Positions 1-62,049 of a stretch of 64,000 bases of DNA are shown here, piece after piece. The notes under the pieces are model-generated. The model was given only the letters and a program-made list of their open reading frames with translations, ran no database searches and had not been told where the DNA came from. This DNA comes from Heterodontus francisci. Lineage: Eukaryota. Each line of letters begins with the position of its first letter. Position 1 is the first letter of the stretch. The position numbers and the translations under genes are program-made. Location: positions 121,009,593 to 121,073,592 of the forward strand of contig NC_090378.1 in NCBI RefSeq assembly GCF_036365525.1, given 5' to 3'.

Positions 1-899
1 ATAATGGACACACAGTCCCACCTCCTGGACTGACACATCCCACAGTTATATATAATATATAATAATGGACACACAGTCCCACCTCCTGGACTGACACATC
101 CCACAGCTATATATAATATATAATAATGGACACAGAGTCCCACCTCCTGGACTGACACATCCCACAGTTATATATAATATATAATAATGGACACAGAGTC
201 CCACCTCCTGGACTGACACATCCCACAGTTATATATAATATATAATAATGGACACACAGTCCCACCTCCTGGACTGACACATCCCACAGTTATATATAAT
301 ATATAATAATGGACACACAGTCCCACCTCCTGGACTCACACATCCCACAGTTATATATAATATATAATAATGGACACACAGTCCCACCTCCTGTACTGAG
401 ACATCCCACAGTTATATATAATATATAATAATGGACACACAGTCCCACCTCCTGGACTGACACATCCCACAGTTATATATAATATATAATAATGGATACA
501 CAGTCCCACCTCCTGGACTGACACATCCCACAGCTATATATAATATATAATAATGGACACACAGTCCCACCTCCTGGACTGACACATCCCACAGTGATAT
601 ATAATATATAATAATGGACACACAGTCCCACCTCCTGTACTGAGACATCCCACAGTTATATATAATATATAATAATGGATACACAGTCCCACCTCCTGTA
701 CTGAGACATCCCACAGTTATATATAATATATAATAATGGACACACAGTCCCACCTCCTGTACTGAGACATCCCACAGTTATATATAATATATAATAATGG
801 ACACACAGTCCCACCTCCTGTACTGACACATCCCACAGTTATATATAATATATAATAATGGACACACAGTCCCACCTCCTGTACTGAGACATCCCACAG

Positions 900-1870
900 T
901 TATATATAATATATAATAATGGACACACAGTCCCACCTCCTGGACTGACACATCCCACAGTTATATATAATATATAATAATGGACAAATAGTCCCACCTC
1001 CCGGACTGAGACATCCCACAGCTATATATAATATATAATAATGGACACACAGTCCCACCTCCCGTACTGACGCATCCCACAGTGATATATAATATATAAT
1101 AATGGACACACAGTCCCACCTCCTGGACTGACACATCCCACAGTTATATATAATATATAATAATGGATACACAGTCCCACCTCCTGGACTGACACATCCC
1201 ACAGTGATATATAATATATAATAATGGACACACAGTCCCACCTCCTGGACTGACACATCCCACAGTTATATATAATATATAATAATGGACAAATAGTCCC
1301 ACCTCCCGGACTGAGACATCCCACAGCTATATATAATATATAATAATGGACACACAGTCCCACCTCCCGTACTGACGCATCCCACAGTGATATATAATAT
1401 ATAATAATGGACACACAGTCCCACCTCCTGGACTGACACATCCCACAGTTATATATAATATATAATAATGGATACACAGTCCCACCTCCTGGACTGACAC
1501 ATCCCACAGTGATATATAATATATAATAATGGACACACAGTCCCACCTCCTGGACTGACACATCCCACAGTTATATATAATATATAATAAAGGACACACA
1601 GTCCCACCTCCTGTACTGACACATCCCACAGTTATATATAATATATAATAATGGACACACAGTCCCACCTCCCGTACTGACGCATCCCACAGTGATATAT
1701 AATATATAATAATGGACACACAGTCCCACCTCCTGGACTGACACATCCCACAGTTATATATAATATATAATAATGGACACACAGTCCCACCTCCTGGACT
1801 GACACATCCCACAGTTATATATAATATATAATAATGGACACAGAGTCCCACCTCCTGGACTGACACATCC
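900..1870. repeat. 5-monomer (305-bp) higher-order repeat, ~3 copies
   Basis: Diagnostic variant CCCGTACTGACGC at 1061, 1366, 1671; ACAAATAGTCC...CCGGACTGAG at ~985 and ~1290. Confidence 0.9.
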
Positions 1871-3299
1871 CACAGTTATATATAATATATAATAATGGAC
1901 ACACAGTCCCACCTCAGGTACTGACACATCCCACAGTTATATATAATATATAATAATGGACACACAGTCCCACCTCCTGGACTGACACATCCCACAGTTA
2001 TATATAATATATAATAATGGATACACAGTCCCACCTCCTGGACTGACACATCCCACAGCTATATATAATATATAATAATGGACACAAAGTCCCACCTCCT
2101 GGACTGAAACATCCCACAGTTATATATAATATATAATAATGGACACACAGTCCCACCTCAGGTACTGAAACATCCCACAGTTATATATAATATATAATAA
2201 TGGACACACAGTCCCACCTCCTGTACTGACACATCCCACAGTTATATATAATATATAATAATGGACACACAGTCCCACCTCCTGGACTGACACATCCCAC
2301 AGTTATATATAATATATAATAATGGACACACAGTCCCACCTCAGGTACTGAAACATCCCACAGTTATATATAATATATAATAATGGACACAGAGTCCCAC
2401 CTCCTGTACTGACACATCCCACAGTTATATATAATATATAATAATGGACACACAGTCCCACCTCCTGGACTGACACATCCCACAGTTATATATAATATAT
2501 AATAATGGACACACAGTCCCACCTCCTGGACTGACACATCCCACAGTTATATATAATATATAATAATGGACACACAGTCCCACCTCAGGTACTGAAACAT
2601 CCCACAGTTATATATAATATATAATAATGGACACACAGTCCCACCTCCTGGACTGACACATCCCACAGTTATATATAATATATAATAATGGACACACAGT
2701 CCCACCTCCTGTACTGACACATCCCACAGTTATATATAATATATAATAATGGACACACAGTCCCACCTCCTGGACTGACACATCCCACAGTTATATATAA
2801 TATATAATAATGGATACACAGTCCCACCTCCTGCACTGACACATCCCACAGCTATATATAATATATAATAATGGACACACAGTCCCACCTCAGGTACTGA
2901 AACATCCCACAGTTATATATAATATATAATAATGGACACAGAGTCCCACCTCCTGGACTGACACATCCCACAGTTATATATAATATATAATAATGGACAC
3001 ACAGTCCCACCTCCTGCACTGACACATCCCACAGTTATATATAATATATAATAATGGACACACAGTCCCACGTCCTGCACTGAAACATCCCACAGTTATA
3101 TATAATATATAATAATGGACACACAGTCCCACCTCCTGCACTGACACATCCCACAGTTATATATAATATATAATAATGGACACACAGTCCCACGTCCTGC
3201 ACTGACACATCCCACAGTTATATATAATATATAATAATGGACACACAGTCCCACCTCCTGGACTGAAACATCCCACAGTTATATATAATATATAATAAT

Positions 3300-5200
3300 G
3301 GACACACAGTCCCACCTCCTGGACTGACACATCCCACAGTTATATATAATATATAATAATGGACACACAGTCCCACCTCAGGTACTGAAACATCCCACAG
3401 TTATATATAATATATAATAATGGACACACAGTCCCACCTCAGGTACTGAAACATCCCACAGTTATATATAATATATAATAATGGACACAGAGTCCCACCT
3501 CCTGTACTGACACATCCCACAGTTATATATAATATATAATAATGGACACACAGTCCCACCTCCTGTACTGACATGGCCCACAGTTATATATAATATATAA
3601 TAATGGACACACAGTCCCACCTCCTGGACTGACACATCCCACAGTTATATATAATATATAATAATGGACACACAGTCCCACCTCCTGGACTGACACATCC
3701 CACAGTTATATATAATATATAATAATGGACACACAGTCCCACCTCAGGTACTGAAACATCCCACAGTTATATATAATATATAATAATGGACACAGAGTCC
3801 CACCTCCTGTACTGACACATCCCACAGTTATATATAATATATAATAATGGACACACAGTCCCACCTCCTGTACTGACATGGCCCACAGTTATATATAATA
3901 TATAATAATGGACACACAGTCCCACCTCCTGGACTGACACATCCCACAGTTATATATAATATATAATAATGGACACACAGTCCCACCTCCTGGACTGACA
4001 CATCCCACAGTTATATATAATATATAATAATGGACACACAGTCCCACCTCAGGTACTGAAACATCCCACAGTTATATATAATATATAATAATGGACACAC
4101 AGTCCCACCTCCTGTACTGACACGTCCCACAGTTATATATAATATATAATAATGGACACACAGTCCCACCTCAGGTACTGAAACATCCCACAGTTATATA
4201 TAATATATAATAATGGACACACAGTCCCACGTCCTGCACTGACACATCCCACAGTTATATATAATATATAATAATGGACACACAGTCCCACCTCAGGTAC
4301 TGAAACATCCCACAGTTATATATAATATATAATAATGGACACACAGTCCCACCTCCTGGACTGACACATCCCACAGTTATATATAATATATAATAATGGA
4401 CACACAGTCCCACCTCAGGTACTGAAACATCCCACAGTTATATATAATATATAATAATGGACACACAGTCCCACCTCAGGTACTGAAACATCCCACAGTT
4501 ATATATAATATATAATAATGGACACAGAGTCCCACCTCCTGTACTGACACATCCCACAGTTATATATAATATATAATAATGGACACACAGTCCCACCTCC
4601 TGTACTGACATGGCCCACAGTTATATATAATATATAATAATGGACACACAGTCCCACCTCCTGGACTGACACATCCCACAGTTATATATAATATATAATA
4701 ATGGACACACAGTCCCACCTCCTGGACTGACACATCCCACAGTTATATATAATATATAATAATGGACACACAGTCCCACCTCAGGTACTGAAACATCCCA
4801 CAGTTATATATAATATATAATAATGGACACAGAGTCCCACCTCCTGTACTGACACATCCCACAGTTATATATAATATATAATAATGGACACACAGTCCCA
4901 CCTCCTGTACTGACATGGCCCACAGTTATATATAATATATAATAATGGACACACAGTCCCACCTCCTGGACTGACACATCCCACAGTTATATATAATATA
5001 TAATAATGGACACACAGTCCCACCTCCTGGACTGACACATCCCACAGTTATATATAATATATAATAATGGACACACAGTCCCACCTCAGGTACTGAAACA
5101 TCCCACAGTTATATATAATATATAATAATGGACACACAGTCCCACCTCCTGTACTGACACGTCCCACAGTTATATATAATATATAATAATGGACACACAG
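3300..5200. repeat. 305-bp HOR nested in a 1037-bp (17-monomer) duplication
   Basis: Variant ACATGGCCCAC at 3571, 3876, 4608, 4913 (305 within pairs, 1037 between pairs); CACGTCCCAC at 4121 and 5158. Boundaries approximate. Confidence 0.88.
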
Positions 5201-8200
5201 TCCCACCTCCTGGACTGACACATCCCACAGTTATATATAATATATAATAATGGATACACAGTCCCACCTCCTGGACTGACACATCCCACAGCTATATATA
5301 ATATATAATAATGGATACACAGTCCCACCTCCTGGACTGACACATCCCACAGCTATATATAATATATAATAATGGATACACAGTCCCACCTCCTGGACTG
5401 ACACATCCCACAGCTATATATAATATATAATAATGGATACACAGTCCCACCTCCTGGACTGACACATCCCACAGCTATATATAATATATAATAATGGATA
5501 CACAGTCCCACCTCCTGGACTGACACATCCCACAGTTATATATAATATATAATAATGGATACACAGTCCCACCTCCTGGACTGACACATCCCACAGCTAT
5601 ATATAATATATAATAATGGACACACAGTCCCACCTCCTGCACTGACACATCCCACAGTTATATATAATATATAATAATGGACTCACAGTCCCACCTCCTG
5701 CACTGACACATCCCACAGCTATATATAATATATAATAATGGATACACAGTCCCACCTCCTGGACTGACACATCCCACAGCTATATATAATATATAATAAT
5801 GGATACACAGTCCCACCTCCTGGACTGACACATCCCACAGTTATATATAATATATAATAATGGATACACAGTCCCACCTTCTGGACTGACACATCCCACA
5901 GCTATATATAATATATAATAATGGACACACAGTCCCACCTCCTGCACTGACACATCCCACAGTTATATATAATATATAATAATGGATACACAGTCCCACC
6001 TCCTGGACTGACACATCCCACAGCTATATATAATATATAATAATGGACACACAGTCCCACCTCCTGCACTGACACATCCCACAGTTATATATAATATATA
6101 ATAATGGACACACAGTCCCACCTCCTGCACTGAAACATCCCACAGTTATATATAATATATAATAATGGACACACCGTCCCACCTCCTGGACTGACACATC
6201 CCACAGTTATATATAATATATAATAATGGACACACAGTCCCACCTCAGGTACTGAAACATCCCACAGTTATATATAATATATAATAATGGACACACAGTC
6301 CCACCTCCTGGACTGACACATCCCACAGTTATATATAATATATAATAATGGACACACAGTCCCACCTCCTGCACTGACACATCCCACAGTTATATATAAT
6401 ATAGAATAATGGACACACAGTCCCACCTCCTGTACTGACACATCCCACAGTTATATATAATATATAATAATGGACACACAGTCCCACCTCCTGCACTGAC
6501 ACATCCCACAGTTATATATAATATAGAATAATGGACACACAGTCCCACCTCCTGTACTGACACATCCCACAGTTATATATAATATATAATAATGGACACA
6601 AAGTCCCACCTCCTGCACTGACACATCCCACAGTTATATATAATATATAATAATGGACACACAGTCCCACCTCCTGGACTGACACATCCCACAGTTATAT
6701 ATAATATATAATAATGGACACAAAGTCCCACCTCCTGCACTGACACATCCCACAGTTATATATAATATATAATAATGGACACACAGTCCCACGTCCTGCA
6801 CTGAAACATCCCACAGTTATATATAATATAGAATAATGGACACACAGTCCCACCTCCTGCACTGACACATCCCACAGTTATATATAATATATAATAATGG
6901 ACACACAGTCCCACGTCCTGCACTGAAACATCCCACAGTTATATATAATATATAATAATGGATACACAGTCCCACCTCCTGGACTGAAACATCCCACAGT
7001 TATATATAATATATAATAATGGACACACAGTCCCACGTCCTGCACTGAAACATCCCACAGTTATATATAATATATAATAATGGATACACAGTCCCACCTC
7101 CTGGACTGAAACATCCCACAGTTATATATAATATATAATAATGGACACAAAGTCCCACCTCCTGCACTGACACATCCCACAGTTATATATAATATATAAT
7201 AATGGACACACAGTCCCACCTCCTGTACTGACACATCCCACAGTTATATATAATATATAATAATGGACACACAGTCCCACCTCCTGCACTGACACATCCC
7301 ACAGTTATATATAATATATAATAATGGACACACAGTCCCACGTCCTGCACTGAAACATCCCACAGTTATATATAATATATAATAATGGATACACAGTCCC
7401 ACCTCCTGGACTGAAACATCCCACAGTTATATATAATATATAATAATGGACACACAGTCCCACGTCCTGCACTGACACATCCCACAGTTATATATAATAT
7501 ATAATAATGGACACACAGTCCCACGTCCTGCACTGAAACATCCCACAGTTATATATAATATATAATAATGGATACACAGTCCCACCTCCTGTACTGAAAC
7601 ATCCCACAGTTATATATAATATATAATAATGGATACACAGTCCCACCTCCTGGACTGACACATCCCACAGCTATATATAATATATAATAATGGACACAAA
7701 GTCCCACCTCCTGGACTGACACATCCCACAGTTATATATAATATATAATAATGGACACACAGTCCCACCTCCTGCACTGACACATCCCACAGTTATATAT
7801 AATATATAATAATGGACACACAGTCCCACCTCCTGCACTGACACATCCCACAGTTATATATAATATATAATAATGGACACACAGTCCCACGTCCTGCACT
7901 GAAACATCCCACAGTTATATATAATATAGAATAATGGACACACAGTCCCACCTCCTGGACTGACACATCCCACAGCTATATATAATATATAATAATGGAC
8001 ACAAAGTCCCACCTCCTGGACTGAAACATCCCACAGCTATATATAATATATAATAATGGACACAAAGTCCCACCTCCTGCACTGACACATCCCACAGTTA
8101 TATATAATATATAATAATGGACACACAGTCCCACCTCCTGCACTGACACATCCCACAGTTATATATAATATATAATAATGGACACACAGTCCCACCTCCT

Positions 8201-9104
8201 GCACTGACACATCCCACAGTTATATATAATATATAATAATGGACACACAGTCCCACGTCCTGCACTGAAACATCCCACAGTTATATATAATATAGAATAA
8301 TGGACACACAGTCCCACCTCCTGGACTGACACATCCCACAGCTATATATAATATATAATAATGGACACAAAGTCCCACCTCCTGCACTGACACATCCCAC
8401 AGTTATATATAATATATAATAATGGACACACAGTCCCACCTCCTGCACTGACACATCCCACAGTTATATATAATATATAATAATGGACACACAGTCCCAC
8501 CTCCTGCACTGACACATCCCACAGTTATATATAATATATAATAATGGACACACAGTCCCACGTCCTGCACTGAAACATCCCACAGTTATATATAATATAG
8601 AATAATGGACACACAGTCCCACCTCCTGGACTGACACATCCCACAGCTATATATAATATATAATAATGGACACAAAGTCCCACCTCCTGGACTGAAACAT
8701 CCCACAGCTATATATAATATATAATAATGGACACAAAGTCCCACCTCCTGGACTGACACATCCCACAGTTCTATATAATATATAATAATGGACACAGAGT
8801 CCCACCTCCTGGACTGACACATCCCACAGTTATATATAATATATAATAATGGACACACAGTCCCACCTCAGGTACTGAAACATCCCACAGTTATATATAA
8901 TATATAATAATGCACACACAGTCCCACCTCATGTTCTGACACATCCCACAGTTATATATAATATATAATAATGGACACACAGTCCCACCTCCTGCACTGA
9001 CACATCCCACAGTTATATATAATATATAATAATGGACACACAGTCCCACCTCCTGCACTGACACATCCCACAGTTATATATAATATATAATAATGGACAC
9101 ACAG

Positions 9105-11625
9105 TCCCACGTCCTGCACTGAAACATCCCACAGTTATATATAATATAGAATAATGGACACACAGTCTCACCTCCGGTACTGACACATCCCACAGTTATA
9201 CATAATACTTAATAATGGACACACGGTCCCACCTCCCGCACTGACACATCCCACAGGCTTATCTAATATATAATAATGCACACACAGTCCAACCTCATGT
9301 TCTGACACATCCCGTAGTTATATATAATATATAATAATGGACAGAGAGACCCACCTCCTGCACTGACACATCGCACAGTTATATATAATATATAATAATG
9401 GACACACAGTCCCACCACCCGTACTGACACATCCCACAGTAATATATAATATATAATAATGGACACACAGTCCCACCTCCTGTACTGACACATCCCACAG
9501 TAATATATAATATATAATAATGGACACACAGTCCCACCTCCTGTACTGACACATCCCACAGTTATATATAATATATAATAATGGACACACAGTCCCACCA
9601 CCCGTACTGAGACATCCCACAATTATATATAATATATAATAATGCACACACAGTCCCACCTCCTGCACTGACACATCGCACAGTTATATATAATATATAA
9701 TAATGGATACATAGTCCCACCTCCTGCACTGACACATCCCAGTTATATATAATATATAATAATGGACACACGGTCCCACCTCCCGCACTGACACATCCCA
9801 CAGGTTTATCTAATATATAAAAATGGACACACAGTCCCACCTCCTGAACTGACACATCCCACAGGTTTATCTAATATATAATAATGGACACACAGTCCCA
9901 CCTCATGTTCTGACACATCCCACAGTTATATATAATATATAATAATGGACACACGGTCCCACCTCCCGCACAGACACATCCCACAGGTTTATCTAATATA
10001 TAATAATGAACACACAGTCCCACCTCCCGCACTGACACATCCCATAGGTTTATCTAATATATAATAATGGACACACAGTCCCACCTCATGTTCTGACACA
10101 TCCCACAGTTATATATAATATATAATAATGGACACACGGTCCCACCTCCCGCACAGACACATCCCACAGGTTTATCTAATATATAATAATGGACACACAG
10201 TCCCACCTCCTGTACTGACACATCCCACAGTTATATATAATATATAATAATGGACACACGGTCCCACCTCCCGCACTGACACATCCCACAGGTTTATCTA
10301 ATATATAATAATGGACACACAGTCCCACCTCATGTTCTGACATATCCCACAGTGATATATAATATATAATAATGGACACACGGTCCCAAATCCCACACTG
10401 ACACATCCCACAGTTATATATAATATCTAATAATGGACACACAGACTCACCTCCGGTACTGACACATCCCACAGTTATATATAATATATAATAATGGACA
10501 CACAGTCCCACCGCCTGCACTGACACATCCCACAGTTATATATAATATATAATAATGGACACACAGTCCCACCTCCCGCACTGACACATCCCACAGGTTT
10601 ATCTAATATATAATAATGGACACACAGTCCCACCGCCTGCACTGACACATCCCACAGTTACATATAATATATAATAATGGACACACAGTCCTACGTCCTG
10701 CACTGAAACATCCCACAGTTATATATAATACTTAATAATGCAGACACAGTCCCACCTCCCGCACTGACACATCCCACAGGTTTATCTAATATATAACAAT
10801 GCACATACGGTCCCACCTCATGTACTGACACATCCCACAGTTATATATAATATATAATAATGGACACACAGTCCCACCTCATGTTCTGACACATCCCACA
10901 GTTATATATAATAGATAATAATGGACACTGAGTCCCACCTCCCGCACTGACACATCCCACAGGTTTCTATAATATATAACAATTGACACACAGTCCCACC
11001 TCCTGTACTGACACATCCCACAGTTATATATAATATATAATAATGGACACACAGTCCCACCTCCTGTACTGGCACATCCCACAGTTATATATAATATATA
11101 ATAATGGACACACAGTCCCACCTCCTGTACTGGCACATCCCACAGTTATATATAATACATAATAAAGGACACACAGTCCCACCTCCTGCACTGACACATC
11201 CCACAGTTATATATAATATATAATAATGGACACACAGTCCCACCTCCTGTACTGGCACATCCCACAGTTATATATAATACATAATAAAGGACACACAGTC
11301 CCACCTCCTGCACTGACACATCCCACAGTTCTATATAAAATATAATAATGGACACACAGACTCACCTCCGGTACTGACACATCCCACAGTTATATATAAT
11401 ATATAATAATGGACACACAGACTCACCTCCTGTACTGACACATCCCACAGTTATATATAATACATAATAATGTACACACGGTACCATCTCCTGCACTGAC
11501 ACATCCCACATTTATATATAATATATAATAATGGACACACAGTCCCAAATCCCTCACTGACACATCCCACAGTTATATATAATAGATAATAATGGACACA
11601 CAGTCCCACCTCCCGCAATGAAACA
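9105..11625. repeat. Diverged monomer block, copy 1 of a ~2.5-kb intra-array duplication
   Basis: Ordered rare variants recur 8965 bp downstream (GGCTTATCTA 9256/18221; CCCGCAATG 11612/20577); a 59-bp deleted monomer is present in both copies. Confidence 0.9.
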
Positions 11626-14600
11626 TCCCACAGTTATATATAATATATAATAATGGACACACAGTCCCACCTCCTGGACTGAAACATCCCACAGTTATAT
11701 ATAATATATAATAATGGACACACAGTCCCACCTCCTGTACTGACACATCCCACAGTTATATATAATATATAATAATGGACACACAGTCCCACCTCCCGAA
11801 CTGACACATCCCACAGTTATATATAATATATAATAATGGACACACAGTCCCACCTCCTGTACTGACACATCCCACAGTTAGATATAATATATAATAATGG
11901 ACACACAGTCCCACCTCCCGCAATGAAACATCCCACAGTTATATATAATATATAATAATGGACACACAGTCCCACCTCCTGGACTGACACATCCCACAGT
12001 TATATATAATATATAATAATGGACACACAGTCCCACCTCCTGGACTGACACATCCCACAGCTATATATAATAGATAATAATGGACACACAGTCCCACCTC
12101 CTGTACTGACACATCCCACAGTTATATATAATATATAATAATGGACACACAGTCCCACCTCCTGTACTGACACATCCCACAGTTATATATAATATATAAT
12201 AATGGACACACAGTCCCACCTCCTGTACTGACACATCTCACAGTTATATATAATATATAATAATGGACACACAGTCCCACCTCCCGCAATGAAACATCCC
12301 ACAGTTATATATAATATATAATAATGGACACACAGTCCCACCTCCTGTACTGACACATCCCACAGTTATATATAATATATAATAATGGACACACAGTCCC
12401 ACCTCCTGTACTGACACATCCCACAGTTATATATAATATATAATAATGGACACACAGTCCCACCTCCTGTACTGACACATCCCACAGTTATATATAATAT
12501 ATAATAATGGACACACAGTCCCACCTCCTGTACTGACACATCCCACAGTTATATATAATAGATAATAATGGACACACAGTCCCACCTCCTGTACTGACAC
12601 ATCCCACAGTTATATATAATATATAATAATGGACACACAGTCCCACCTCCTGTACTGACACATCCCACAGTTATATATAATATATAATAATGGACACACA
12701 GTCCCACCTCCTGGACTGAAACATCCCACAGTTATATATAATATATAATAATGGATACACAGTCCCACCTCCTGCACTGACACATCCCACAGTTATATAT
12801 AATATATAATAATGGACACACAGTCCCACCTCCTGGACTGACACATCCCACAGTTATATATAATATATAATAATGGACACACAGTCCCACCTCCTGGACT
12901 GACACATCCCACAGTTATATATAATATATAATAATGGACACACAGTCCCACCTCCTGGACTGACACATCCCACAGTTATATATAATATATAATAATGGAT
13001 ACACAGTCCCACCTCCTGCACTGACACATCCCACAGTTATATATAATATATAATAATGGACACACAGTCCCACCTCCTGGACTGACACATCCCACAGTTA
13101 TATATAATATATAATAATGGATACACAGTCCCACCTCCTGCACTGACACATCCCACAGTTATATATAATATATAATAATGGATACACAGTCCCACCTCCT
13201 GCACTGACACATCCCACAGTTATATATAATATATAATAATGGACACACAGTCCCACCTCCTGCACTGACACATCCCACAGTTATATATAATATATAATAA
13301 TGGACACACAGTCCCACCTCCTGTACTGACACATCCCACAGTTATATATAATATATAATAATGGACACACAGTCCCACCTCCTGGACTGACACATCCCAC
13401 AGTTATATACAATATATAATAATGGACACACAGTCCCACCTCCTGGACTGACACATCCCACAGTTATATATAATATATAATAATGGACACACAGTCCCAC
13501 CTCCTGGACTGAAACATCCCACAGTTATATATAATATATAATAATGGACACACAGTCCCACCTCCTGTACTGACACATCCCACAGTTATATATAATATAT
13601 AATAATGGACACACAGTCCCACCTCCTGGACTGAAACATCCCACAGTTATATATAATATATAATAATGGACACACAGTCCCACCTCCTGTACTGACACAT
13701 CCCACAGTTATATATAATATATAATAATGGACACACAGTCCCACCTCCTGGACTGACACATCCCACAGTTATATATAATATATAATAATGGACACACAGT
13801 CCCACCTCCTGGACTGACACATCCCACAGTTATATATAATATATAATAATGGATACACAGTCCCACCTCCTGCACTGACACATCCCACAGTTATATATAA
13901 TATATAATAATGGACACACAGTCCCACCTCCTGGACTGACACATCCCACAGTTATATATAATATATAATAATGGACACACAGTCCCACCTCCTGGACTGA
14001 CACATCCCACAGTTATATATAATATATAATAATGGATACACAGTCCCACCTCCTGCACTGACACATCCCACAGTTATATATAATATATAATAATGGACAC
14101 ACAGTCCCACCTCCTGGACTGACACATCCCACAGTTATATATAATATATAATAATGGACACACAGTCCCACCTCCTGGACTGAAACATCCCACAGTTATA
14201 TATAATATATAATAATGGACACACAGTCCCACCTCCTGTACTGACACATCCCACAGTTATATATAATATATAATAATGGACACACAGTCCCACCTCCTGG
14301 ACTGACACATCCCACAGTTATATATAATATATAATAATGGACACACAGTCCCACCTCCTGTACTGACACATCCCACAGTTATATATAATATATAATAATG
14401 GACACACAGTCCCACCTCCTGGACTGACACATCCCACAGTTATATATAATATATAATAATGGACACACAGTCCCACCTCCGGCACTGACACATCCCACAG
14501 TTATATATAATATATAATAATGGACACACAGTCCCACCTCCTGTACTGACACATCCCACAGTTATATATAATATATAATAATGGACACACAGTCCCACCT

Positions 14601-46500: not shown

Positions 46501-49500
46501 TAAATAATAATGAACACAAAGTCCCACCTCCTGCACTGACACATTCCACAGTTATATATAATCTATAATAATGGACACACAGTCCCACCTCCTGTACTGA
46601 CACATCCCACTGTTATATATAATAAATAATAATGAACACACAGTCCCACCTCCTGTACTGACACATCCCACAGTAATATATAATAAATAATAATGAACAC
46701 ACAGTCCCACCTCCTGTACTGACACATCCCACAGTTATATATAATAAATAATAATGAACACACAGTCCCACCTCCTGTACTGACACAACCCACAGTTATA
46801 TATAATATATAGTAATGGACACAAAGTCCCACCTCCTGTACTGACACATTCCACAGTAATATATAATATATAGTAATGGACACAAAGTCCCACCTCCTGT
46901 ACTGACACATCCCACAGTTATATATAATAAATAATAATGAACACACAGTCCCACCTCCTGTACTGACACATCCCACAGTTATATATAATATATAGTAATG
47001 GACACAAAGTCCCACCTCCTGTACTGACACATTCCACAGTAATATATAATATATAGTAATGGACACAAAGTCCCACCTCCTGTACTGACACATCCCACAG
47101 TTATATATAATAAATAATAATGAACACACAGTCCCACCTCCTGTACTGACACATCCCACAGTTATATATAATATATAGTAATGGACACAAAGTCCCACCT
47201 CCTGTACTGACACATTCCACAGTTATATATAATAAATAATAATGGACACACAGTCCCACCTCCTGTACTGACACATCCCACAGTTATATATAATATCTAG
47301 TAATGGACACAAAGTCCCACCTCCGGTACTGACACATTCCACAGTTATATATAAAATATAGTAATGGACACAAAGTCCCACCTCCTGTACTGACACATCC
47401 CACAGTTATATATAATAAATAATAATGAACACACAGTCCCACCTCCTGTACTGACGCATCCCACAGTTATATATATTATATAGTATTGGACACAAAGTCC
47501 CACCTCCTGTACTGACACATTCCACAGTTATATATAATATATAGTAATGGACACAAAGTCCCACCTCCTGTACTGACACATTCCACAGTTATATATAATA
47601 TATAGTAATGGACACAAAGTCCCACCTCCTGTACTGACGCATCCCACAGTTATATATAATATATAATAATGGACACAAAGTCCCACCTCCAGCACTGACG
47701 CATCCCACAGTTATATATAATATATAGTAATGGACACAAAGTCCCACCTCCTGTACTGACGCATCCCACAGTTATATATAATATATAATAATGGACACAA
47801 AGTCCCACCTCCTGTACTGACACATCCCACAGTTATATATAATATATAGTAATGGACACAAAGTCCCACCTCCTGTACTGACAGAACCCACTGTTATATA
47901 TAATAAATAATAATGAACACACAGTCCCACCTCCTGTACTGACACATCCCACAGTTATATATAATATATAATAATGGACACAAAGTCCCACCTCCTGTAC
48001 CGACACATCCCACAGTTATATATAATATATAATAATGGACACAAAGTCCCACCTCCTGTACTGACACATCCCACAGTTATATATAATATATAGTAATGGA
48101 CACAAAGTCCCACCTCCTGTACTGACAGAACCCACTGTTATATATAATAAATAATAATGAACACACAGTCCCACCTCCTGCACTGACGCATCCCACAGTT
48201 ATATATAATATATAATAATGGACACAAAGTCTAACCTCCTGTACTGACACATTCCACAGTTATATATAATATATAGTAATGGACACAAAGTCCCACCTCC
48301 TGTACTGACACATCCCACAGTTATATATAATAAATAATAATGAACACAAAGTCCCACCTCCTGAACTGACACATTTCACAGTTATATATAATATATAGTA
48401 ATGGACACAAAGTCCCACCTCCTGTACTGACACATCCCACAGTTATATATAATAAATAATAATGAACACACAGTCCCACCTCCTGTACTGACACGTCCCA
48501 CAGTTATATATAATAAATAATAATGGACACACAGTCCCACCTCCTGTACTGACACATCCCACAGTTATATATAATAAATAATAATGAACACACAGTCCCA
48601 CCTCCTGTACTGACACGTCCCACAGTTATATATAATAAATAATAATGAACACACAGTCCCACCTCCTGTACTGACACATTCCACAGTTATATATAATATA
48701 TAGTAATGGACACAAAGTCCCACCTCCTGTACTGACACATCCCACAGTTATATGTAATAAATAATAATGAACACACAGTCCCACCCCCTGTACTGACGCA
48801 TCCCACAGTTATATATAATATATAGTAATGGACACACAGTCCCACCCCCTGTACTGACGCATCCCACAGTTATATATAATAAATAATAATGAACACAAAT
48901 TCCCACCTCCTGCACTGACACATCCCACAGTTATATATAATAAATAATAATGAACACACAGTCCCACCTCTGTACTGACACATCCCACAGTTATATATAA
49001 TAAATAATAATGAACACACAGTCCCACCTCCTGTACTGACACATCCCACAGTTATATATAATATATAGTAATGGACACAAAGTCCCACCTCCTGTACTGA
49101 CACATTCCACAGTAATATATAATATATAGTAATGGACACAAAGTCCCACCTCCTGTACTGACACATTCCACAGTAATATATAATATATAGTAATGGACAC
49201 ACAGTCCCACCTCCTGTACTGACACATCCCACAGTTATATATAATATATAGTAATGGACACAAAGTCCCACCTCCTGTACTGACACATTCCACAGTTATA
49301 TATAATATATAATAATGGACACACAGTCCCACCTCCTGTACTGACACATCCCACAGTTATATATAATATATAGTAATGGACACAAAGCCCCACCTCCTGT
49401 ACTGACACATTCCACAGTTATATATTAAATATAGTAATGGACACAAAGTCCCACCTCCTGTACTGACACATCCCACAGTTATATATAATAAATAATAATG

Positions 49501-50450
49501 AACACACAGTCCCACCTCCTGTACTGACGCATCCCACAGTTATATATAATATATAGTATTGGACACAAAGTCCCATCTCCTGTACTGACACATTCCACAG
49601 TTATATATAATATATAGTAATGGACACAAAGTCCCACCTTCTGTGCTGACACATTCCACAGTTATATATAATATATAGTAATGGACACAAAGTCCCACCT
49701 CCTGTACTGACGCATCCCACAGTTATATATAATATATAATAATGGACACAAAGTCCCACCTCCTGCACTGACGCATCCCACAGTTATATATAATATATAG
49801 TAATGGACACAAAGTCCCACCTCCTGTACTGACGCATCCCACAGTTATATATAATATATAGTAATGGACACAAAGTCCCACCTCCTGTACTGACGCATCC
49901 CACAGTTATATATAATATATAATAATGGACACAAAGTCCCACCTCCTGTACTGACGCATCCCACAGTTATATATAATATATAGTAATGGACACAAAGTCC
50001 CACCTCCTGTACTGACGCATCCCACAGTTATATATAATATATAATAATGGACACAAAGTCCCACCTCCTGTACTGACACATCCCACAGTTATATATAATA
50101 TATAGTAATGGACACACAGTCCCACCTCCTGTACTGACGCATCCCACAGTTATATATAATATATAATAATGGACACAAAGTCCCACCTCCTGTACTGACA
50201 CATCCCACAGTTATATATAATATATAGTAATGGACACACAGTCCCACCTCCTGCACTGACACATTCCACAGTTATATATAATATATAGTAATGGACACAC
50301 AGTCCCACCTCCTGTACTGACGCATCCCACAGTTATATATAATATATAATAATGGACACAAAGTCCCACCTCCTGTACTGACACATCCCACAGTTATATA
50401 TAATATATAGTAATGGACACACAGTCCCACCTCCTGCACTGACACATTCC
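43550..50450. repeat. Monomer subfamily domain (ATATAGTAAT, AATAAATAATAATGAAC, ACAAAGTCCC, ACATTCCAC variants)
   Basis: These variants dominate here, recur at ~51200-52560 and are rare elsewhere. Boundaries approximate. Confidence 0.85.
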
Positions 50451-53400
50451 ACAGTTATATATAATATATAGTAATGGACACACAGTCCCACCTCCTGCAC
50501 TGACACGTCCCACAGTTATATATAATATATAATAATGGACACACAGTCCCACCTCCTGCACTGACACGTCCCACAGTTATATATAACATATAATAATGGA
50601 CACACAGTCCCACCTCCTGCACTGACACATCCCACAGTTATATATAATATATAATAATGGACACACAGTCCCACCTCCTGCACTGACACATCCCACAGTT
50701 ATATATAATATATAATAATGGACACACAGTCCCACCTCCTGCACTGACACGTCCCACAGTTATATATAATATATAATAATGGACACACAGTCCCACCTCC
50801 TGCACTGACACATCCCACAGTTATATATAATATATAATAATGGACACACAGTCCCACCTCCTGCACTGACACATCCCACAGTTATATATAATATATAATA
50901 ATGGACACACTGTCCCACCTCCTGCACTGACACATCCCACAGTTATATATAATATATAATAATGGACACACAGTCCCACCTCCTGCACTGACACATCCCA
51001 CAGTTATATATAATATATAATAATGGACACACAGTCCCACCTCCTGCACTGACACATCCCACAGTTATATATAATATATAATAATGGACACACAGTCCCA
51101 CCTCCTGCACTGACACGTCCCACAGTTATATATAATATATAATAATGGACACACAGTCCCACCTCCTGAACTGACACCTCTAACAGTTATATATAATAAA
51201 TAATAATGAACACACAGTCCCACCTCCTGTACTGACACATCCCACAGTTATATATAATATATAATAATTGACACACAGTCCCACCTCCTGTACTGACACA
51301 TCCCACAGTTATATATAATCTATAATAATGGACACACAGTCCCACCTCCTGTACTGACACATCCCACAGTTATATATAATATATAGTAATGGACACACAG
51401 TCCCACCTCCTGAACTGACACCTCCCACAGTTATATATAATAAATAATAATGAACACACAGTCCCACCTCCTGTACTGACACATCCCACAGTTATATGTA
51501 ATATATAGTAATGGACACAAAGTCCCACCTCCTGTACTGACACATTCCACAGTTATATATAATCTATAATAATGGACACACAGTCCCACCTCCTGTACTG
51601 ACACATCCCACAGTTATATATAATATATAGTAATGGACACACAGTCCCACCTCCTGAACTGACACCTCCCACAGTTATATATAATAAATAATAATGAACA
51701 CACAGTCCCACCTCCTGTACTGACACATCCCACAGTTATATGTAATATATAGTAATGGACACAAAGTCCCACCTCCTGTACTGACACATTCCACAGTTAT
51801 ATATAATCTATAATAATGGACACACAGTCCCACCTCCCGCACTGACACATCCCAGAGTTACATACAATACATAATGATGGACACAGAATCCCACCTCCCG
51901 CACTGACACATCCCACAGTGTTTATATAAGATATAATAATGGACTCACAGTCCCACCTCCTGCACTGACACATCCCATTGTTATATCTAATATATGATAA
52001 TGTACAAACAGTAACACCTCCCGGACTGACACATCCCACAGTTATATATAATGCATAATATTGGACACACAGACTCACCTCCTGTACTGACACATCCCAC
52101 AGGTTTATCTAATATATATTAATGCACACACGGTCCCACCTCCTGTACTGACACATCCCACAGTTATATATATTATATAATAATGGACACACAGTCCCAC
52201 CTCCTGCAATGAAACGTCCCACAGTTATATATAATATATAGTATTGGACACAAAGTCCCACCTCCTGTACTGACACATTCCACAGTTATATATAATATAT
52301 AGTAATGGACACAAAGTCCCACCTCCTGTACTGACACATTCCACAGTTATATATAATATATAGTAATGGACACAAAGTTCCACCTCCTGTACTGACACAT
52401 CCCACAGTTATATATAATAAATAATAATGAATACACAGTCCCACCTCCTGTACTGACACATCCCACAGTTATATATAATAGATAGTAATGGACACAAAGT
52501 CCCACCTCCTGTACTGACACATCCCACAGTTATATATAATATATAGTAATGGACACACATTCCCACCTCCTGCACTGACACATTCCACAGTTATATATAA
52601 TATATAATAATGGACACACAGTCCCACCTCCTGCACTGACACATCCCACAGTTATATATAATATATAATAATGAACACACAGTCCCACCTCCTGCACTGA
52701 CACGTCCCACAGCTATATATAATAAATAATAATGAACACACAGTCCCACCTCCTGTACTGACACAGCCCACAGTTATATAATATAATAATGGACACACAG
52801 TCCCACCTCCTGTACTGGCACGTCCCACAGTTATATATAATATATAATAATGGACACACAGTCCCACCTCCTGCACTGACACATCCCACAGTTATATATA
52901 ATATATAATAATGGACACACAGTCCCACCTCCTGCACTGACACATCCCACAGTTATATATAATATATAATAATGAACACACAGTCCCACCTCCTGTACTG
53001 ACACAGCCCACAGTTATATAATATAATAATGGACACACAGTCCCACCTCCTGCACTGACACATCCCACAGTTATATATAATATATAACAATGGACACACA
53101 GTCCCACCTCCTGCACTGACACATCCCACAGTTATATATAATATATAATCATGGACACACAGTCCCACCTCCTGCACTGACACATCCCACAGTTATATAT
53201 AATATATAATAATGGACACACAGTCCCACCTCCTGCACTGACACATCCCACAGTTATATATAATATATAATAATGGACACACAGTCCCACCTCCTGTACT
53301 GACACATCCCACAGTTATATATAATATATAATAATGGACACACAGTCCCACCTCCTGCACTGACACGTCCCACAGTTATATATAATATATAATAATGGAC

Positions 53401-53459
53401 ACACAGTCCCACCTCCTGTACTGACACATCCCACAGTTATATATAATATATAATAATGG

Positions 53460-56400
53460 ACACACAGTCCCACCTCCTGCACTGACACGTCCCACAGTTA
53501 TATATAATATATAATAATGGACACACAGTCCCACCTCCTGTACTGACACATCCCACAGTTATATATAATATATAATAATGGACACACAGTCCCACCTCCT
53601 GCACTGACACATCCCACAGTTATATATAATATATAATAATGGACACACAGTCCCACCTCCTGCACTGACACATCCCACAGTTATATATAATATATAATAA
53701 TGGACACACAGTCCCACCTCCTGTACTGACACATCCCACAGTTATATATAATATATAATAATGGACACACAGTCCCACCTCCTGCACTGACACGTCCCAC
53801 AGTTATATATAATATATAATAATGGACACACAGTCCCACCTCCTGTACTGACACATCCCACAGTTATATATAATATATAATAATGGACACACAGTCCCAC
53901 CTCCTGCACTGACACGTCCCACAGTTATATATAATATATAATAATGGACACACAGTCCCACCTCCTGTACTGACACATCCCACAGTTATATATAATATAT
54001 AATAATGGACACACAGTCCCACCTCCTGCACTGACACGTCCCACAGTTATATATAATATATAATAATGGACACACAGTCCCACCTCCTGTACTGACACAT
54101 CCCACAGTTATATATAATATATAATAATGGACACACAGTCCCACCTCCTGCACTGACACGTCCCACAAGTTTATATAATATATAATAATGGACACACAGT
54201 CCCACCTCCTGCATTGACACGTCCCACAGTTATATATAATATATAATAATGGACACACAGTCCCACCTCCTGTACTGACACATCCCACAGTTATATATAA
54301 TATATAATAATGGACACACAGTCCCACCTCCAGTACTGACACATCCCACAGTTATATATAATATATAATAATGGACACACAGTCCCACCTCCTGCACTGA
54401 CACGTCCCACAGCTATATATAATAAATAATAATGAACACACAGTCCCACCTCCTGTACTGACACAGCCCACAGTTATATATAATATATAATAATGGATAC
54501 ACAGTCCCACCTCCTGCACTGACACGTCCCACAAGTTTATATAATATATAATAATGGACACACAGTCCCACCTCCTGCATTGACACGTCCCACAGTTATA
54601 TATAATATATAATAATGGACACACAGTCCCACCTCCTGCACCGACACATTCCACAGTTATATATAATATATAATAATGGACACACAGTCCCACCTCCTGT
54701 ACTGACACATCCCACAGTTATATATAATAAATAATAATGAACACAAAGTCCCACCTCCTGTACTGACACATTCCACAGTTATATATAATATATAATAATG
54801 GACACACAGTCCCACCTCCTGCACTGACACGTCCCACAAGTTTATATAATATATAATAATGGACACACAGTCCCACCTCCTGCATTGACACGTCCCACAG
54901 CTATATATAATATATAATAATGGACACACAGTCCCACCTCCTGTACTAACACGTCCCACAGTTATATATAATATATAATAATGGACACACAGTCCCACCT
55001 CCTGCACTGACACGTCCCACAGTTATATATAATATATTATAATGGACACACAGTCCCACCTCCTGTACTGACACATCCCACAGTTATATATAATAAATAA
55101 TAATGAACACACAGTCTGACCTCCGGTCCTGACACATTCCACAGTTATATATAATATATAATAATGGACACAGAGTCCCACCTCCTGTACTGACACATCC
55201 CACAGTTATATATAATAAATAATAATGAACACACAGTCCCACCTCCTGTACTGACACATCCCACAGTTATATATAATATATAATAATGGACACAGAGTCC
55301 CACCTCCTGTACTGACACATCCCACAGTTATATATAATAAATAATAATGAACACACAGTCCCACCTCCGGTACTGACACATTCCTCAGTTATATATAATA
55401 TATAATAATGGACACACAGTCCCACCTCCGGTACTGACACATTCCACAGTTATATATAATATATAATAATGGACACAGAGTCCCACCTCCTGTACTGACA
55501 CATCCCACAGGTTTATCTAATATATAATAAAGGAGACACAGTCCCACCTCCCATACTGACGCATCCCACAGTTATATACAATACATAATAAAGGACACAC
55601 AGTCCCACCTCCTGCACTGACACATCCCACAGTTATATATTATATATAATAATGGACACACAGTCCCACCTCCCGCCGTTGCACATCCCACAAGTTTATA
55701 TAATATATAATAATGGACACACAGCCCCACCTCCCGCCGTTGCACATCCCACAAGTTTATATAATATATAATAATGGACACACAGTCCCACCTCCCGCAC
55801 TGAGACATCCCACAGTTATATGTAACACATAATAATGGACACACAGTCCCACCTCCTGTACTGACACATCCCACAGTTATATATAATATATAATAATGGA
55901 CACACAGTCCCACCTCCTGTACTGACACATCCCACAGTTATATATAATATATAATAATGGACACACAGTCCCACCTCCTGTACTGACACATCTCACAGTT
56001 ATATATAATATATAATAATGGACACACAGTCCCACCTCCTGCACTGACACGTCCCACAGTTATATATTATATATAATAATGGACACACAGTCCCACCTCC
56101 CGCACTGACACTTCCCACAGTTATATATAATATATAATAATGGACACACAGTCCCACCTCCAGTACTGACACATCCCACAGTTATATATAATATATAATA
56201 ATGGACACACAGTCCCACCTCCTGCACTGACACGTCCCACAGTTATATATAATATATAATAATGGACACACAGTCCCACCTCCCGCACTGACACTTTCCA
56301 CAGTTATATATAATATATAATAATGGACACATAGTCCCACCTCCCGCACTGACACTTCCCACAGTTATATATAATATATAATAATGGACACACAGTCCCA

Positions 56401-59400
56401 CCTCCCGCACTGACACTTCCCACAGTTATATATAATATATAATAATGGACACACAGTCCCACCTCCCGCACTGACACTTCCCACAGTTATATATAATATA
56501 TAATAATGGACACACAGTCCCACCTCCCGCACTGACACTTCCCACAGTTATATATAATATATAATAATGGACACACAGTCCCACCTCCTGTACTGACACA
56601 TCCCACAGTTATATATAATATATAATAATGGACACACAGTCCCACCTCCCGCACTGACACTTCCCACAGTTATATATAATATATAATAATGGACACACAG
56701 TCCCACCTCCCGCACTGACACATCCCACAGTTATATATAATATATAATAATGAACACACAGTCCCACCTCCTGTACTGACACTTCCCACAGTTATATATA
56801 ATATATAATAATGGACACACAGTCCCACCTCCTGTACTGACACATCCCACAGTTATATATAATAAATAATAATGAACACAAAGTCCCACCTCCTGTACTG
56901 ACACATCCCACAGTTATATATAATATATAATAATGGACTCACAGTCCCACCTCCTGCACTGACACATCCCACAGTTATATATAATATATAGTAATGGACA
57001 CACAGTCCCACCTCCTGCACTGACACGTCCCACAGTTATATATAATATATAATAATGGACACACAGTCCCACCTCCTGTACTGACACATCCCACAGTTAT
57101 ATATAATATATAATAATGGACACACAGTCCCACCTCCTGCACTGACACATCCCACAGTTATATATAATATATAATAATGGACACACAGTCCCACCTCCTG
57201 CACTGACACATCCCACAGTTATATATAATATATAATAATGGACACACAGTCCCACCTCCTGTACTGACACATCCCACAGTTATATATAATATATAATAAT
57301 GGACACACAGTCCCACCTCCTGCACTGACACGTCCCACAGTTATATATAATATATAATAATGGACACACAGTCCCACCTCCTGTACTGACACATCCCACA
57401 GTTATATATAATATATAATAATGGACACACAGTCCCACCTCCTGCACTGACACGTCCCACAGTTATATATAATATATAATAATGGACACACAGTCCCACC
57501 TCCTGTACTGACACATCCCACAGTTATATATAATATATAATAATGGACACACAGTCCCACCTCCTGCACTGACACGTCCCACAGTTATATATAATATATA
57601 ATAATGGACACACAGTCCCACCTCCTGTACTGACACATCCCACAGTTATATATAATATATAATAATGGACACACAGTCCCACCTCCTGCACTGACACGTC
57701 CCACAAGTTTATATAATATATAATAATGGACACACAGTCCCACCTCCTGCATTGACACGTCCCACAGTTATATATAATATATAATAATGGACACACAGTC
57801 CCACCTCCTGTACTGACACATCCCACAGTTATATATAATATATAATAATGGACACACAGTCCCACCTCCAGTACTGACACATCCCACAGTTATATATAAT
57901 ATATAATAATGGACACACAGTCCCACCTCCTGCACTGACACGTCCCACAGCTATATATAATAAATAATAATGAACACACAGTCCCACCTCCTGTACTGAC
58001 ACAGCCCACAGTTATATATAATATATAATAATGGATACACAGTCCCACCTCCTGCACTGACACGTCCCACAAGTTTATATAATATATAATAATGGACACA
58101 CAGTCCCACCTCCTGCATTGACACGTCCCACAGTTATATATAATATATAATAATGGACACACAGTCCCACCTCCTGCACCGACACATTCCACAGTTATAT
58201 ATAATATATAATAATGGACACACAGTCCCACCTCCTGTACTGACACATCCCACAGTTATATATAATAAATAATAATGAACACAAAGTCCCACCTCCTGTA
58301 CTGACACATTCCACAGTTATATATAATATATAATAATGGACACACAGTCCCACCTCCTGCACTGACACGTCCCACAAGTTTATATAATATATAATAATGG
58401 ACACACAGTCCCACCTCCTGCATTGACACGTCCCACAGCTATATATAATATATAATAATGGACACACAGTCCCACCTCCTGTACTAACACGTCCCACAGT
58501 TATATATAATATATAATAATGGACACACAGTCCCACCTCCTGCACTGACACGTCCCACAGTTATATATAATATATTATAATGGACACACAGTCCCACCTC
58601 CTGTACTGACACATCCCACAGTTATATATAATAAATAATAATGAACACACAGTCTGACCTCCGGTCCTGACACATTCCACAGTTATATATAATATATAAT
58701 AATGGACACAGAGTCCCACCTCCTGTACTGACACATCCCACAGTTATATATAATAAATAATAATGAACACACAGTCCCACCTCCTGTACTGACACATCCC
58801 ACAGTTATATATAATATATAATAATGGACACAGAGTCCCACCTCCTGTACTGACACATCCCACAGTTATATATAATAAATAATAATGAACACACAGTCCC
58901 ACCTCCGGTACTGACACATTCCACAGTTATATATAATATATAATAATGGACACAGAGTCCCACCTCCTGTACTGACACATCCCACAGGTTTATCTAATAT
59001 ATAATAAAGGAGACACAGTCCCACCTCCCATACTGACGCATCCCACAGTTATATACAATACATAATAATGGACACACAGTCCCACCTCCTGCACTGACAC
59101 ATCCCACAGTTATATATTATATATAATAATGGACACACAGTCCCACCTCCCGCCGTTGCACATCCCACAAGTTTATATAATATATAATAATGGACACACA
59201 GCCCCACCTCCCGCCGTTGCACATCCCACAAGTTTATATAATATATAATAATGGACACACAGTCCCACCTCCCGCACTGAGACATCCCACAGTTATATGT
59301 AACACATAATAATGGACACACAGTCCCACCTCCTGTACTGACACATCCCACAGTTATATATAATATATAATAATGGACACACAGTCCCACCTCCTGTACT

Positions 59401-60475
59401 GACACATCCCACAGTTATATATAATATATAATAATGGACACACAGTCCCACCTCCTGTACTGACACATCTCACAGTTATATATAATATATAATAATGGAC
59501 ACACAGTCCCACCTCCTGCACTGACACGTCCCACAGTTATATATTATATATAATAATGGACACACAGTCCCACCTCCCGCACTGACACTTCCCACAGTTA
59601 TATATAATATATAATAATGGACACACAGTCCCACCTCCAGTACTGACACATCCCACAGTTATATATAATATATAATAATGGACACACAGTCCCACCTCCT
59701 GCACTGACACGTCCCACAGTTATATATAATATATAATAATGGACACACAGTCCCACCTCCCGCACTGACACTTCCCACAGTTATATATAATATATAATAA
59801 TGGACACATAGTCCCACCTCCCGCACTGACACTTCCCACAGTTATATATAATATATAATAATGGACACACAGTCCCACCTCCCGCACTGACACTTCCCAC
59901 AGTTATATATAATATATAATAATGGACACACAGTCCCACCTCCCGCACTGACACTTCCCACAGTTATATATAATATATAATAATGGACACACAGTCCCAC
60001 CTCCCGCACTGACACTTCCCACAGTTATATATAATATATAATAATGGACACACAGTCCCACCTCCTGTACTGACACATCCCACAGTTATATATAATATAT
60101 AATAATGGACACACAGTCCCACCTCCCGCACTGACACTTCCCACAGTTATATATAATATATAATAATGGACACACAGTCCCACCTCCCGCACTGACACAT
60201 CCCACAGTTATATATAATATATAATAATGAACACACAGTCCCACCTCCTGTACTGACACTTCCCACAGTTATATATAATATATAATAATGGACACACAGT
60301 CCCACCTCCTGTACTGACACATCCCACAGTTATATATAATAAATAATAATGAACACAAAGTCCCACCTCCTGTACTGACACATCCCACAGTTATATATAA
60401 TATATAATAATGGACTCACAGTCCCACCTCCTGCACTGACACATCCCACAGTTATATATAATATATAGTAATGGA
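53460..60475. repeat. ~3.5-kb near-identical tandem duplication (58/57 monomers)
   Basis: ORF-track pairs 53986/57524 (+3538 = 58x61) and 55572/59049 (+3477 = 57x61); CGCCGTTGCAC doublets at ~55674/55735 and ~59151/59212. Confidence 0.93.
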
Positions 60476-61080
60476 CACAAAGTCCCACCTCCTGTACTGA
60501 CACATTCCACAGTTATATATAATATATAATAATGGACAGACAGTCCCACCTCCTGTACTGACACGTCCCACAGTTATATATAATATATAATAATGGACAC
60601 ACAGTCCCACCTCCTGTACTGACACGTCCCACAGTTATATATAATATATAATAATGGACACACAGTCCCACCTCCTGTACTGACACGTCCCACAGTTATA
60701 TATAATATATAATAATGGACACACAGTCCCACCTCCTGCACTGACACATCCCACAGTTATATATAATATATAATAATGGACACACAGTCCCACCTCCTGC
60801 ACTGACACATCCCACAGTTATATATAATATATAATAATGGACACACAGTCCCACCTCCTGTACTGACACATCCACAGTTATATATAATATATAATAATGG
60901 ACACACAGTCCCACCTCCTGCACTGACACATCCCACAGTTATATATAATATATAATAATGGACACACAGTCCCACCTCCTGCACTGACACATCCCACAGT
61001 TATATATAATATATAATAATGGACACACTTTCCCAATTTCTCTGCTGACACATCCACAGTTATATTTATTATATAATAAA

Positions 61081-62012: not shown

Positions 62013-62049
<37 letters not shown>

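What the first reader, a model, noticed from the sequence alone, without database searches (positions are those of the whole stretch)
1..61080. ~1,000 tandem 23-RSS-like signals on one strand, ending 2.8 kb from an Ig light-chain J segment
Seen: each monomer reads CACAGTT, exactly 23 bp, then ACACAGTCC (heptamer 6/7 to CACAGTG, nonamer 6/9 to ACAAAAACC). Each also has a second CACAGT and five CAC trinucleotides on + with none on - in the consensus. All point toward the J 23-RSS. Established: RAG needs CAC, follows the 12/23 rule, and its off-target cutting from a J-centred recombination centre favours convergent CAC motifs. Inference: the array could be a RAG decoy or sink, a source of cryptic joins, or an amplified RSS-derived sequence. 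Caveats: 23/23 pairing with the J is disfavoured, the nonamer lacks A6/A7, and CA-rich satellites give CAC by chance.
Basis: partly seen in the sequence, partly recalled or inferred. Interest (0 to 1): 0.7.

Follow-up and report, generated by a model that had tools for sequence, protein, structure and literature searches.

The report
Satellite-swollen shark antibody gene spacers
In this shark, each of the 28 kappa antibody light-chain gene clusters has its V and J pieces pushed 7 to 217 thousand bases apart by a 61-base repeat found almost nowhere else in the genome, where about 500 bases is reported for the nurse shark; the repeat's likeness to the gene-cutting signal is likely a by-product, but the long gaps would test whether shark antibody genes need short distances to rearrange.

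Summary
The array is real (61-bp unit, about 1,000 copies) but was misplaced. It is the DNA between V and J of an intact Ig-kappa V-J-C cluster. The V, with a 12-RSS, lies 4.3 kb before the window and the array starts 5 bp behind its nonamer; J lies 68 kb on.

All 28 kappa clusters of this shark genome are built this way: V-J 7.5-217 kb, about 1.47 Mb and 24,000 units in all. 4,340 of 4,346 exact genome-wide copies lie in these intervals. Nurse-shark kappa V-J is about 0.5 kb; IgH clusters here span about 1.3 kb. Spliced V-J transcripts exist.

The 23-RSS look-alike (12/16) beats shuffles modestly (p 0.006-0.03). But it forms only across the head-to-tail junction, is no better conserved than its spacer, does not derive from the V or J RSS, and has left no inherited inversions or signal joints. 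Its 12/23 partner would be V, not J.

Best reading: a locus-born passenger satellite excised at each V-J join. A brake on rearrangement, by distance or by cryptic cutting, is not excluded. No paper describing it was found.

The parts
1..61079 (+). 61-bp tandem array filling the V-J interval of an Ig-kappa cluster. It continues 4.26 kb upstream of the window (65.3 kb, about 1,070 units in all) to 5 bp behind the 12-RSS (CACAGTG-12-ACAAAATCC) of an open V-kappa exon at G000:C8:121,005,0xx-121,005,3xx (L047:5410-5732).
61080..63840 (+). Rest of the V-J interval: a flank shared by most clusters, GA-rich simple repeats and other sequence; no V exon found here. 2.7-5.4 kb across the 28 clusters.
   Evidence: all 28 V hits lie elsewhere
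63841..63879 (-). J 23-RSS, CACACTG-23-ACAATATCC (13/16 to the recalled consensus), facing the V and the array
63880..63914 (+). J-kappa coding segment (YTFGKGTKLRL), followed by a GTAAGT splice donor. The open C1-set exon lies 10.8 kb downstream, outside the window (G000:C8:121084292-121084616).

Best explanation
The array is the intervening DNA between the V and J of an intact shark Ig-kappa V-J-C cluster, made of a 61-bp unit that likely grew in place from the short flank behind the V's 12-RSS and is likely cut out whole when RAG joins V to J, its 23-RSS look-alike being likely a by-product of head-to-tail joining. Shown: the position, confinement to the 28 clusters, fixed start and nearly fixed end, open V, J and C, spliced V-J transcripts. 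Inferred: a short run existed in the ancestral cluster, was copied with each cluster duplication, and then changed length by unequal exchange or slippage; its size is tolerated because it is non-coding and is lost at rearrangement; RAG reaches across 7-200 kb by looping or scanning rather than simple proximity.
For: 28 V, 28 J and 28 C on C8 115.7-124.8 Mb pair one to one. Exactly 28 RSS-array junctions exist genome-wide. 4,340 of 4,346 exact 48-mers and 21,303 of 21,382 two-mismatch 26-mers fall in the fetched intervals, the latter all on the V-to-J strand. First and last units are more alike between clusters (0.94, 0.96) than middle units (0.87), and neighbours are more alike than distant units. 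Retroelement-like insertions were themselves copied 2-4 times inside arrays. The array begins with the half that supplies the 'nonamer' and ends with the half that supplies the 'heptamer', which has no nonamer-like follower in 28 of 28 arrays, so the 23-RSS geometry exists only across copy junctions. Conservation over 23,897 units: heptamer 0.943, spacer 0.953, nonamer 0.954; only 6 units reach 14/16. About 4 in 10 of the listed indel events fall in the spacer, which is 38% of the unit (my tally of the 30 classes printed). No inverted unit or signal-joint motif in any array. Organism A contigs show the leader intron spliced and V ends running into J at several positions.
Against: The 12/16 match is uncommon in shuffles (0.6-3%) and equals the scores of real VH 23-RSS in this genome (12-14/16). 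The unit is about 95% identical in contigs of organisms C and D, while the V-kappa of organism C is about 84% identical; slow change of a collapsed consensus may explain this, but constraint is possible. All 28 clusters keep an array of at least 55 units. Absence of inherited joints says nothing about cutting in lymphocytes. 79 of 21,382 loose matches were not located.
Confidence: 0.68

Rival explanations
1. The array is a selected or co-opted spacer that lowers the rearrangement rate of each kappa cluster, by distance or by repeat chromatin (possibly weak CTCF sites), so that a B cell with 56 kappa alleles rearranges few at a time; array length would then tune V usage.
For: Present in 28 of 28 clusters and absent from 8 of 8 split IgH clusters whose J-side RSS was in view. 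Unit conserved in organisms B, C, D. An allele private to the 7.5-kb cluster makes up 17-18% and one private to the 21.5-kb cluster 19% of summed contig depth, against 3.6% for equal use; alleles of the 217-kb cluster make up 0.1-0.9%. The consensus has 3 mismatches to a recalled 14-letter CTCF consensus (72 of 3,000 shuffles do as well).
Against: Lengths vary 60-fold with no common set point. Contig depth is a poor measure, hypermutation and unseen alleles confound it, alleles of 51-66 kb clusters appear at about equal-use share, and a 31-kb divergent cluster is as rare as the 217-kb one. The CTCF-like match points away from J, and the better 2-mismatch variant is not enriched near V (6-11% in all tenths).
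Confidence: 0.17
2. The units work as cryptic 23-RSS. They would pair under the 12/23 rule with the V's own 12-RSS (same orientation, giving an inversion that kills the cluster) or be caught as convergent CAC by RAG scanning from J, acting as a sink or an inactivation route.
For: 15,969 sites in the arrays pass CAC plus at least 12/16 with a 23 spacer on the V-to-J strand, against 14 with a 12 spacer and 5 on the other strand. This is the filter for strong cryptic RSS in PMC11153149 (passage). Mouse gamma-satellite cryptic RSS are cut by RAG (PMC2193808 passages).
Against: The nonamer has G6 and T7 in place of A; none of the real RSS listed at V, D or J ends has G at position 6. No excess conservation. 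No inherited inversion or signal joint in 1.47 Mb, although germline RAG joining is reported for nurse-shark kappa (PMC2193156). No V-to-satellite loose end among the rows shown (14 of 102 rows, 17 of 92).
Confidence: 0.12
3. The long arrays are inflated or duplicated by the assembly.
For: Six pairs of clusters have V exons differing at 0-1 sites, one pair with identical V-J length, so some clusters may be false duplications.
Against: Units are diverse (332 distinct strings between anchors in the window), carry cluster-specific variants and insertions, overlapping fetches had 0 conflicts and no gaps, and the tandem unit appears in contigs from four organisms and at least four studies.
Confidence: 0.03

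Closest known systems
Nurse-shark NS4 / horned-shark type III (kappa) light-chain V-J-C miniloci (Lee et al. 2000, PMC2193156; passages read)
   Same: Split V and J in repeated clusters; leader intron of 186 bp, the same length as the joint seen here; FR1 fits the NS4 primer given there with one mismatch; type III reported as all split, as here.
   Different: V-J is 502-524 bp in NS4 and 7.5-217 kb here; the word 'repeat' does not occur in that paper's main text; NS4 includes germline-joined genes, none found here.
Shark IgH miniloci (Malecek et al. 2008, PMC2435157; passages read)
   Same: Independent clusters that rearrange within the cluster.
   Different: Segments about 400 bp apart, taken there to mean no long-distance recombination or locus contraction in shark IgH; IgH clusters in this genome fit that (V to J about 1.25 kb), the kappa clusters do not.
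Cryptic RSS in mouse gamma-satellite (Cowell et al. 2003, PMC2193808; passages read)
   Same: A tandem satellite whose unit holds a 23-RSS look-alike.
   Different: Gamma-satellite is about 6% of the mouse genome and was shown to be cut by RAG; this repeat is confined to the DNA that RAG excises, and cutting is not shown.
63-bp tandem copies of the true 23-RSS behind NAR-TCR-supporting-type V-delta segments in this same genome (family name recalled)
   Same: A unit of about 60 bp repeated directly behind a V exon.
   Different: There the unit starts at the V's own heptamer and holds near-perfect RSS in 3-14 copies; the kappa unit excludes the V's RSS, is not homologous to the 63-mer and has 55-3,460 copies.

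Membership tests
Bona fide 23-RSS | CAC-led heptamer close to CACAGTG | tested here: met
   CACAGTT in 728 of 1,000 window units, CAC in 911
Bona fide 23-RSS | 23-bp spacer | tested here: met
   Holds in full-length units (976 of 999 spacings are 61), but follows from the 31+30 half-unit layout
Bona fide 23-RSS | A-rich nonamer core (positions 5-7; importance recalled) | tested here: not met
   ACACAGTCC keeps only A5; 6 of 23,897 units reach 14/16
Bona fide 23-RSS | Borders a coding segment | tested here: not met
   Each look-alike borders the previous satellite unit
Bona fide 23-RSS | Heptamer and nonamer more conserved than spacer | tested here: not met
   0.943 and 0.954 against 0.953
Bona fide 23-RSS | Passing RIC-23 score; cleavage by RAG | not testable with these tools
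   No RIC model or assay available; a match count was used instead
Tandemly amplified RSS (as behind the V-delta family on C34) | Unit contains the segment's own RSS | tested here: not met
   Array starts 4-12 bp after the nonamer in 28 of 28; alignment to V 12-RSS, J 23-RSS and the 63-mer reached by 73%, 83% and 54% of 2,000 shuffles
Shark kappa (type III / NS4) minilocus | One V with 12-RSS, one J with 23-RSS, one C per cluster | tested here: met
   28 V, 28 J, 28 C; 23 of 28 V-RSS perfect; V-set and C1-set domains; 27 of 28 J heptamers keep CAC
Shark kappa (type III / NS4) minilocus | Orthology to NS4 | tested here: inconclusive
   186-bp leader intron and FR1 primer fit; light chains among the best PDB matches; no tree was built and no NS4 sequence was on hand
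Shark kappa (type III / NS4) minilocus | V-J interval of about 0.5 kb | tested here: not met
   7.5-216.6 kb, median 49 kb
RSS-adjacent CTCF element | Strong CTCF motif facing the recombination centre | tested here: inconclusive
   3 mismatches to a recalled consensus, on the strand facing away from J; no matrix score or binding data

The most novel reading that the evidence does not exclude
Sharks use a kappa-specific satellite between V and J as a rate control on V(D)J recombination: array length, and thousands of co-oriented cryptic 23-signals that can trap the V's 12-RSS or a scanning RAG, set how often each of 28 clusters rearranges. This would be a repeat-based route to light-chain exclusion and would mean long-range RAG search already operates in cluster-type loci.
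Probability: 0.2. Interest if true: 0.85.

Novelty: new variant of a known kind. Interest (0 to 1): 0.58.

Why it matters
The minilocus view holds that shark Ig segments lie a few hundred bases apart and need no long-range search (PMC2435157). Here a whole light-chain isotype has V-J gaps of 7-217 kb and is expressed, so RAG likely works over long distances in a cluster-type locus. The 28 near-identical clusters differ mainly in spacer length, giving a natural titration of recombination against distance, with about 16,000 co-oriented cryptic signals as a built-in reporter of RAG scanning.

Tried and rejected
Amplified-RSS origin: rejected. Dispersed satellite: rejected. An ancestral single copy at the orphan J on C2: no V, C or satellite within 30 kb upstream and 20 kb downstream. 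CTCF array: weak match only. Usage against array length from contig depth: inconclusive; the tool warns that depth cannot rank genes, and the runs are only guessed to be RNA (no RNA holder on record), though spliced joints show transcripts. J-to-array cryptic joints were not examined in reads: no stretch holding both was laid. Other split light-chain types were not examined, so 'kappa-specific' rests on the genome-wide counts and on the 21 non-kappa V loci. RIC scores could not be computed. Literature: nine full-text searches found no description of a repeat-filled shark kappa V-J interval. Three relevant papers were not held (Criscitiello and Flajnik 2007; Hsu and Criscitiello 2006; Iacoangeli 2017), Rast et al. 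1994 (recalled) was not looked up, and no supplements were read; any of these could mention it. Look-ups of earlier scan notes by place and by sequence returned nothing.

Full report
Observation. TRF finds one array, 1-61,079, period 61, 1,002 copies. The consensus holds CACAGTT, 23 bp, ACACAGTCC; 528 units match this exactly and 707 have CAC plus at least 12 of 16 consensus letters (the consensus CACAGTG/ACAAAAACC is recalled and also quoted in PMC11153149). CAC is strand-biased, 4,823 against 24. A J segment with a 23-RSS sits at 63,841-63,914.

Context. The window is G000:C8:121,009,593-121,073,592 of a 6.0-Gb genome; the Ig organisation marks it as a cartilaginous fish. 4.3 kb upstream lies a leader, an open V exon and a 12-RSS, and the array starts 5 bp behind the nonamer. 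An open C exon lies 10.8 kb past J. The array is therefore the V-J interval of one light-chain cluster, 68.2 kb long. The 186-bp leader intron and FR1 fit nurse-shark NS4, i.e. kappa; no tree was built.

The family. Searches of the genome give 28 full-length V hits (40 of 147 candidates were scored), 29 J hits of 29 candidates, 28 of them on C8, 28 C hits of 28 and exactly 28 RSS-array junctions. I fetched all 28 intervals. V-J distances are 7.5-216.6 kb, median 49 kb; arrays hold 55-3,460 units, about 1.47 Mb in all, and end 2.7-5.4 kb before J. All 28 V exons are open, 23 have a perfect 12-RSS, and 27 of 28 J heptamers keep CAC. Of the genome-wide exact 48-mer matches (2,590 + 1,756), 2,586 + 1,754 lie in these intervals. 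Of the 26-mer matches with up to two mismatches (11,441 + 9,941), 11,391 + 9,912 lie there, all on the V-to-J strand; 79 were not located. As a control, among 21 non-kappa V loci examined, 8 split IgH clusters had their J-side RSS about 1.25 kb from V and none held the repeat. Nurse-shark kappa V-J is about 500 bp (PMC2193156 passages).

How it grew. Every array begins with the same half-unit and most end in one of two flanks. End units are more alike between clusters than middle units, and similarity decays with distance. LINE- and SINE-like insertions (class recalled, not searched) interrupt 8 of 28 arrays, some copied several times within an array. This fits growth in place from the V's 3' flank, inheritance through cluster duplication and turnover by unequal exchange (inference). 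The tandem unit also appears in contigs of organisms B, C and D, with a variant shared by C and D and rare in A, so it predates their split; no contig there bridges V and repeat, so its position and length in those organisms are not shown.

Is it an RSS? The 12/16 match is reached by 0.6% (23 spacer), 1.1% (12 or 23) and 2.8% (+-1) of 5,000 dinucleotide shuffles, and real VH RSS here score 12-14, so it is not negligible. But the unit is two CACAGT-led halves, and the 'nonamer' is the start of the second half; with CACAGT fixed, 4-13% of shuffles match as well. Since arrays start with the nonamer half and end with the heptamer half, which lacks a nonamer in 28 of 28, the geometry arises only across junctions. 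Heptamer and nonamer are no better kept than the spacer. The unit does not align to the V RSS, the J RSS or the true RSS repeat on C34 better than shuffles. No inverted unit or signal-joint motif occurs in any array. If RAG uses these sites, the 12/23 partner is the V's 12-RSS in the same orientation, giving inversion; capture from J would be the very low-level convergent-CAC kind described in mouse (PMC11153149 passages).

Function. Contigs of organism A (0.8 of sampled C-region words shared; runs guessed to be RNA; X1 and X2 are one sample) show the leader spliced to V and V ends continuing into J at positions 1661-1670 of L040. As no germline-joined kappa gene was found in the assembly, these joins are likely somatic and made across arrays, if that animal's arrays resemble the assembly's. 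Alleles private to 51-66 kb clusters are present. Usage against length is inconclusive: the shortest cluster's allele is over-represented and the 217-kb cluster's alleles are rare, but a 31-kb cluster is rare too, the runs hold alleles missing from the assembly, and contig depth is a poor measure.

Verdict. A known kind of locus (shark kappa minilocus) in an undescribed state as far as nine searches reach: its V-J spacer is 15-430 times the nurse-shark length, through a locus-confined satellite. Passenger growth is most likely (0.68); a brake by distance or chromatin (0.17) and cryptic-RSS action (0.12) stay open. Papers seen as passages only: PMC2193156, PMC12227049, PMC2435157, PMC11153149, PMC2193808, PMC13320880; one reference line of PMC6901605; all others as search listings. 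Earlier unreviewed scan notes report the same layout in this genome and in another; I saw them after my own mapping, and they are not independent support.

Noticed in passing
G000:C34:3.6-13.7 Mb (L262, L263, L273, L277, L279, L284): A V family with a Cys in CDR1 (NAR-TCR-supporting V-delta type, name recalled) carries 3-14 tandem 63-bp copies of its own 23-RSS, many perfect; 83 matches genome-wide, all on C34.
   Followed up: partly
G000:C8:119.17-119.53 Mb and 122.82-123.18 Mb: Three kappa clusters are mirrored as an inverted duplication with identical V exons and array lengths within 0.5 kb. All minus-strand clusters lie below 120.7 Mb and all plus-strand clusters above 121.0 Mb.
   Followed up: no
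G000:C8:122.10-122.42 Mb and 123.80-124.04 Mb: Three clusters recur at an offset of about 1.69 Mb; the third pair has arrays of 77 kb and 3.4 kb.
   Followed up: no
G000:C2:125446251 (L039): Orphan J-kappa (90% identical) with no V, C or satellite in the 50 kb examined.
   Followed up: partly
Cluster with J at G000:C8:120123403: The J heptamer has T in place of the third C, so this cluster likely cannot rearrange.
   Followed up: no
L047:5591-5593 and 5724-5732 (the window's own V): This V and its sister at C8:118378405 have an extra Cys in FR3 and a nonamer with T at position 7.
   Followed up: no
Arrays of 8 clusters: One LINE-like family has inserted repeatedly into the AT-rich half of the unit, in both orientations.
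   Followed up: no
window about 63,240-63,260: A short stretch on the minus strand resembles pieces of the satellite unit, in 2 of 28 clusters; probably chance.
   Followed up: partly
L287:2211-3315 (G000:C13): A 24-bp C-rich tandem repeat (47 copies) follows a germline-joined VJ-type exon.
   Followed up: no
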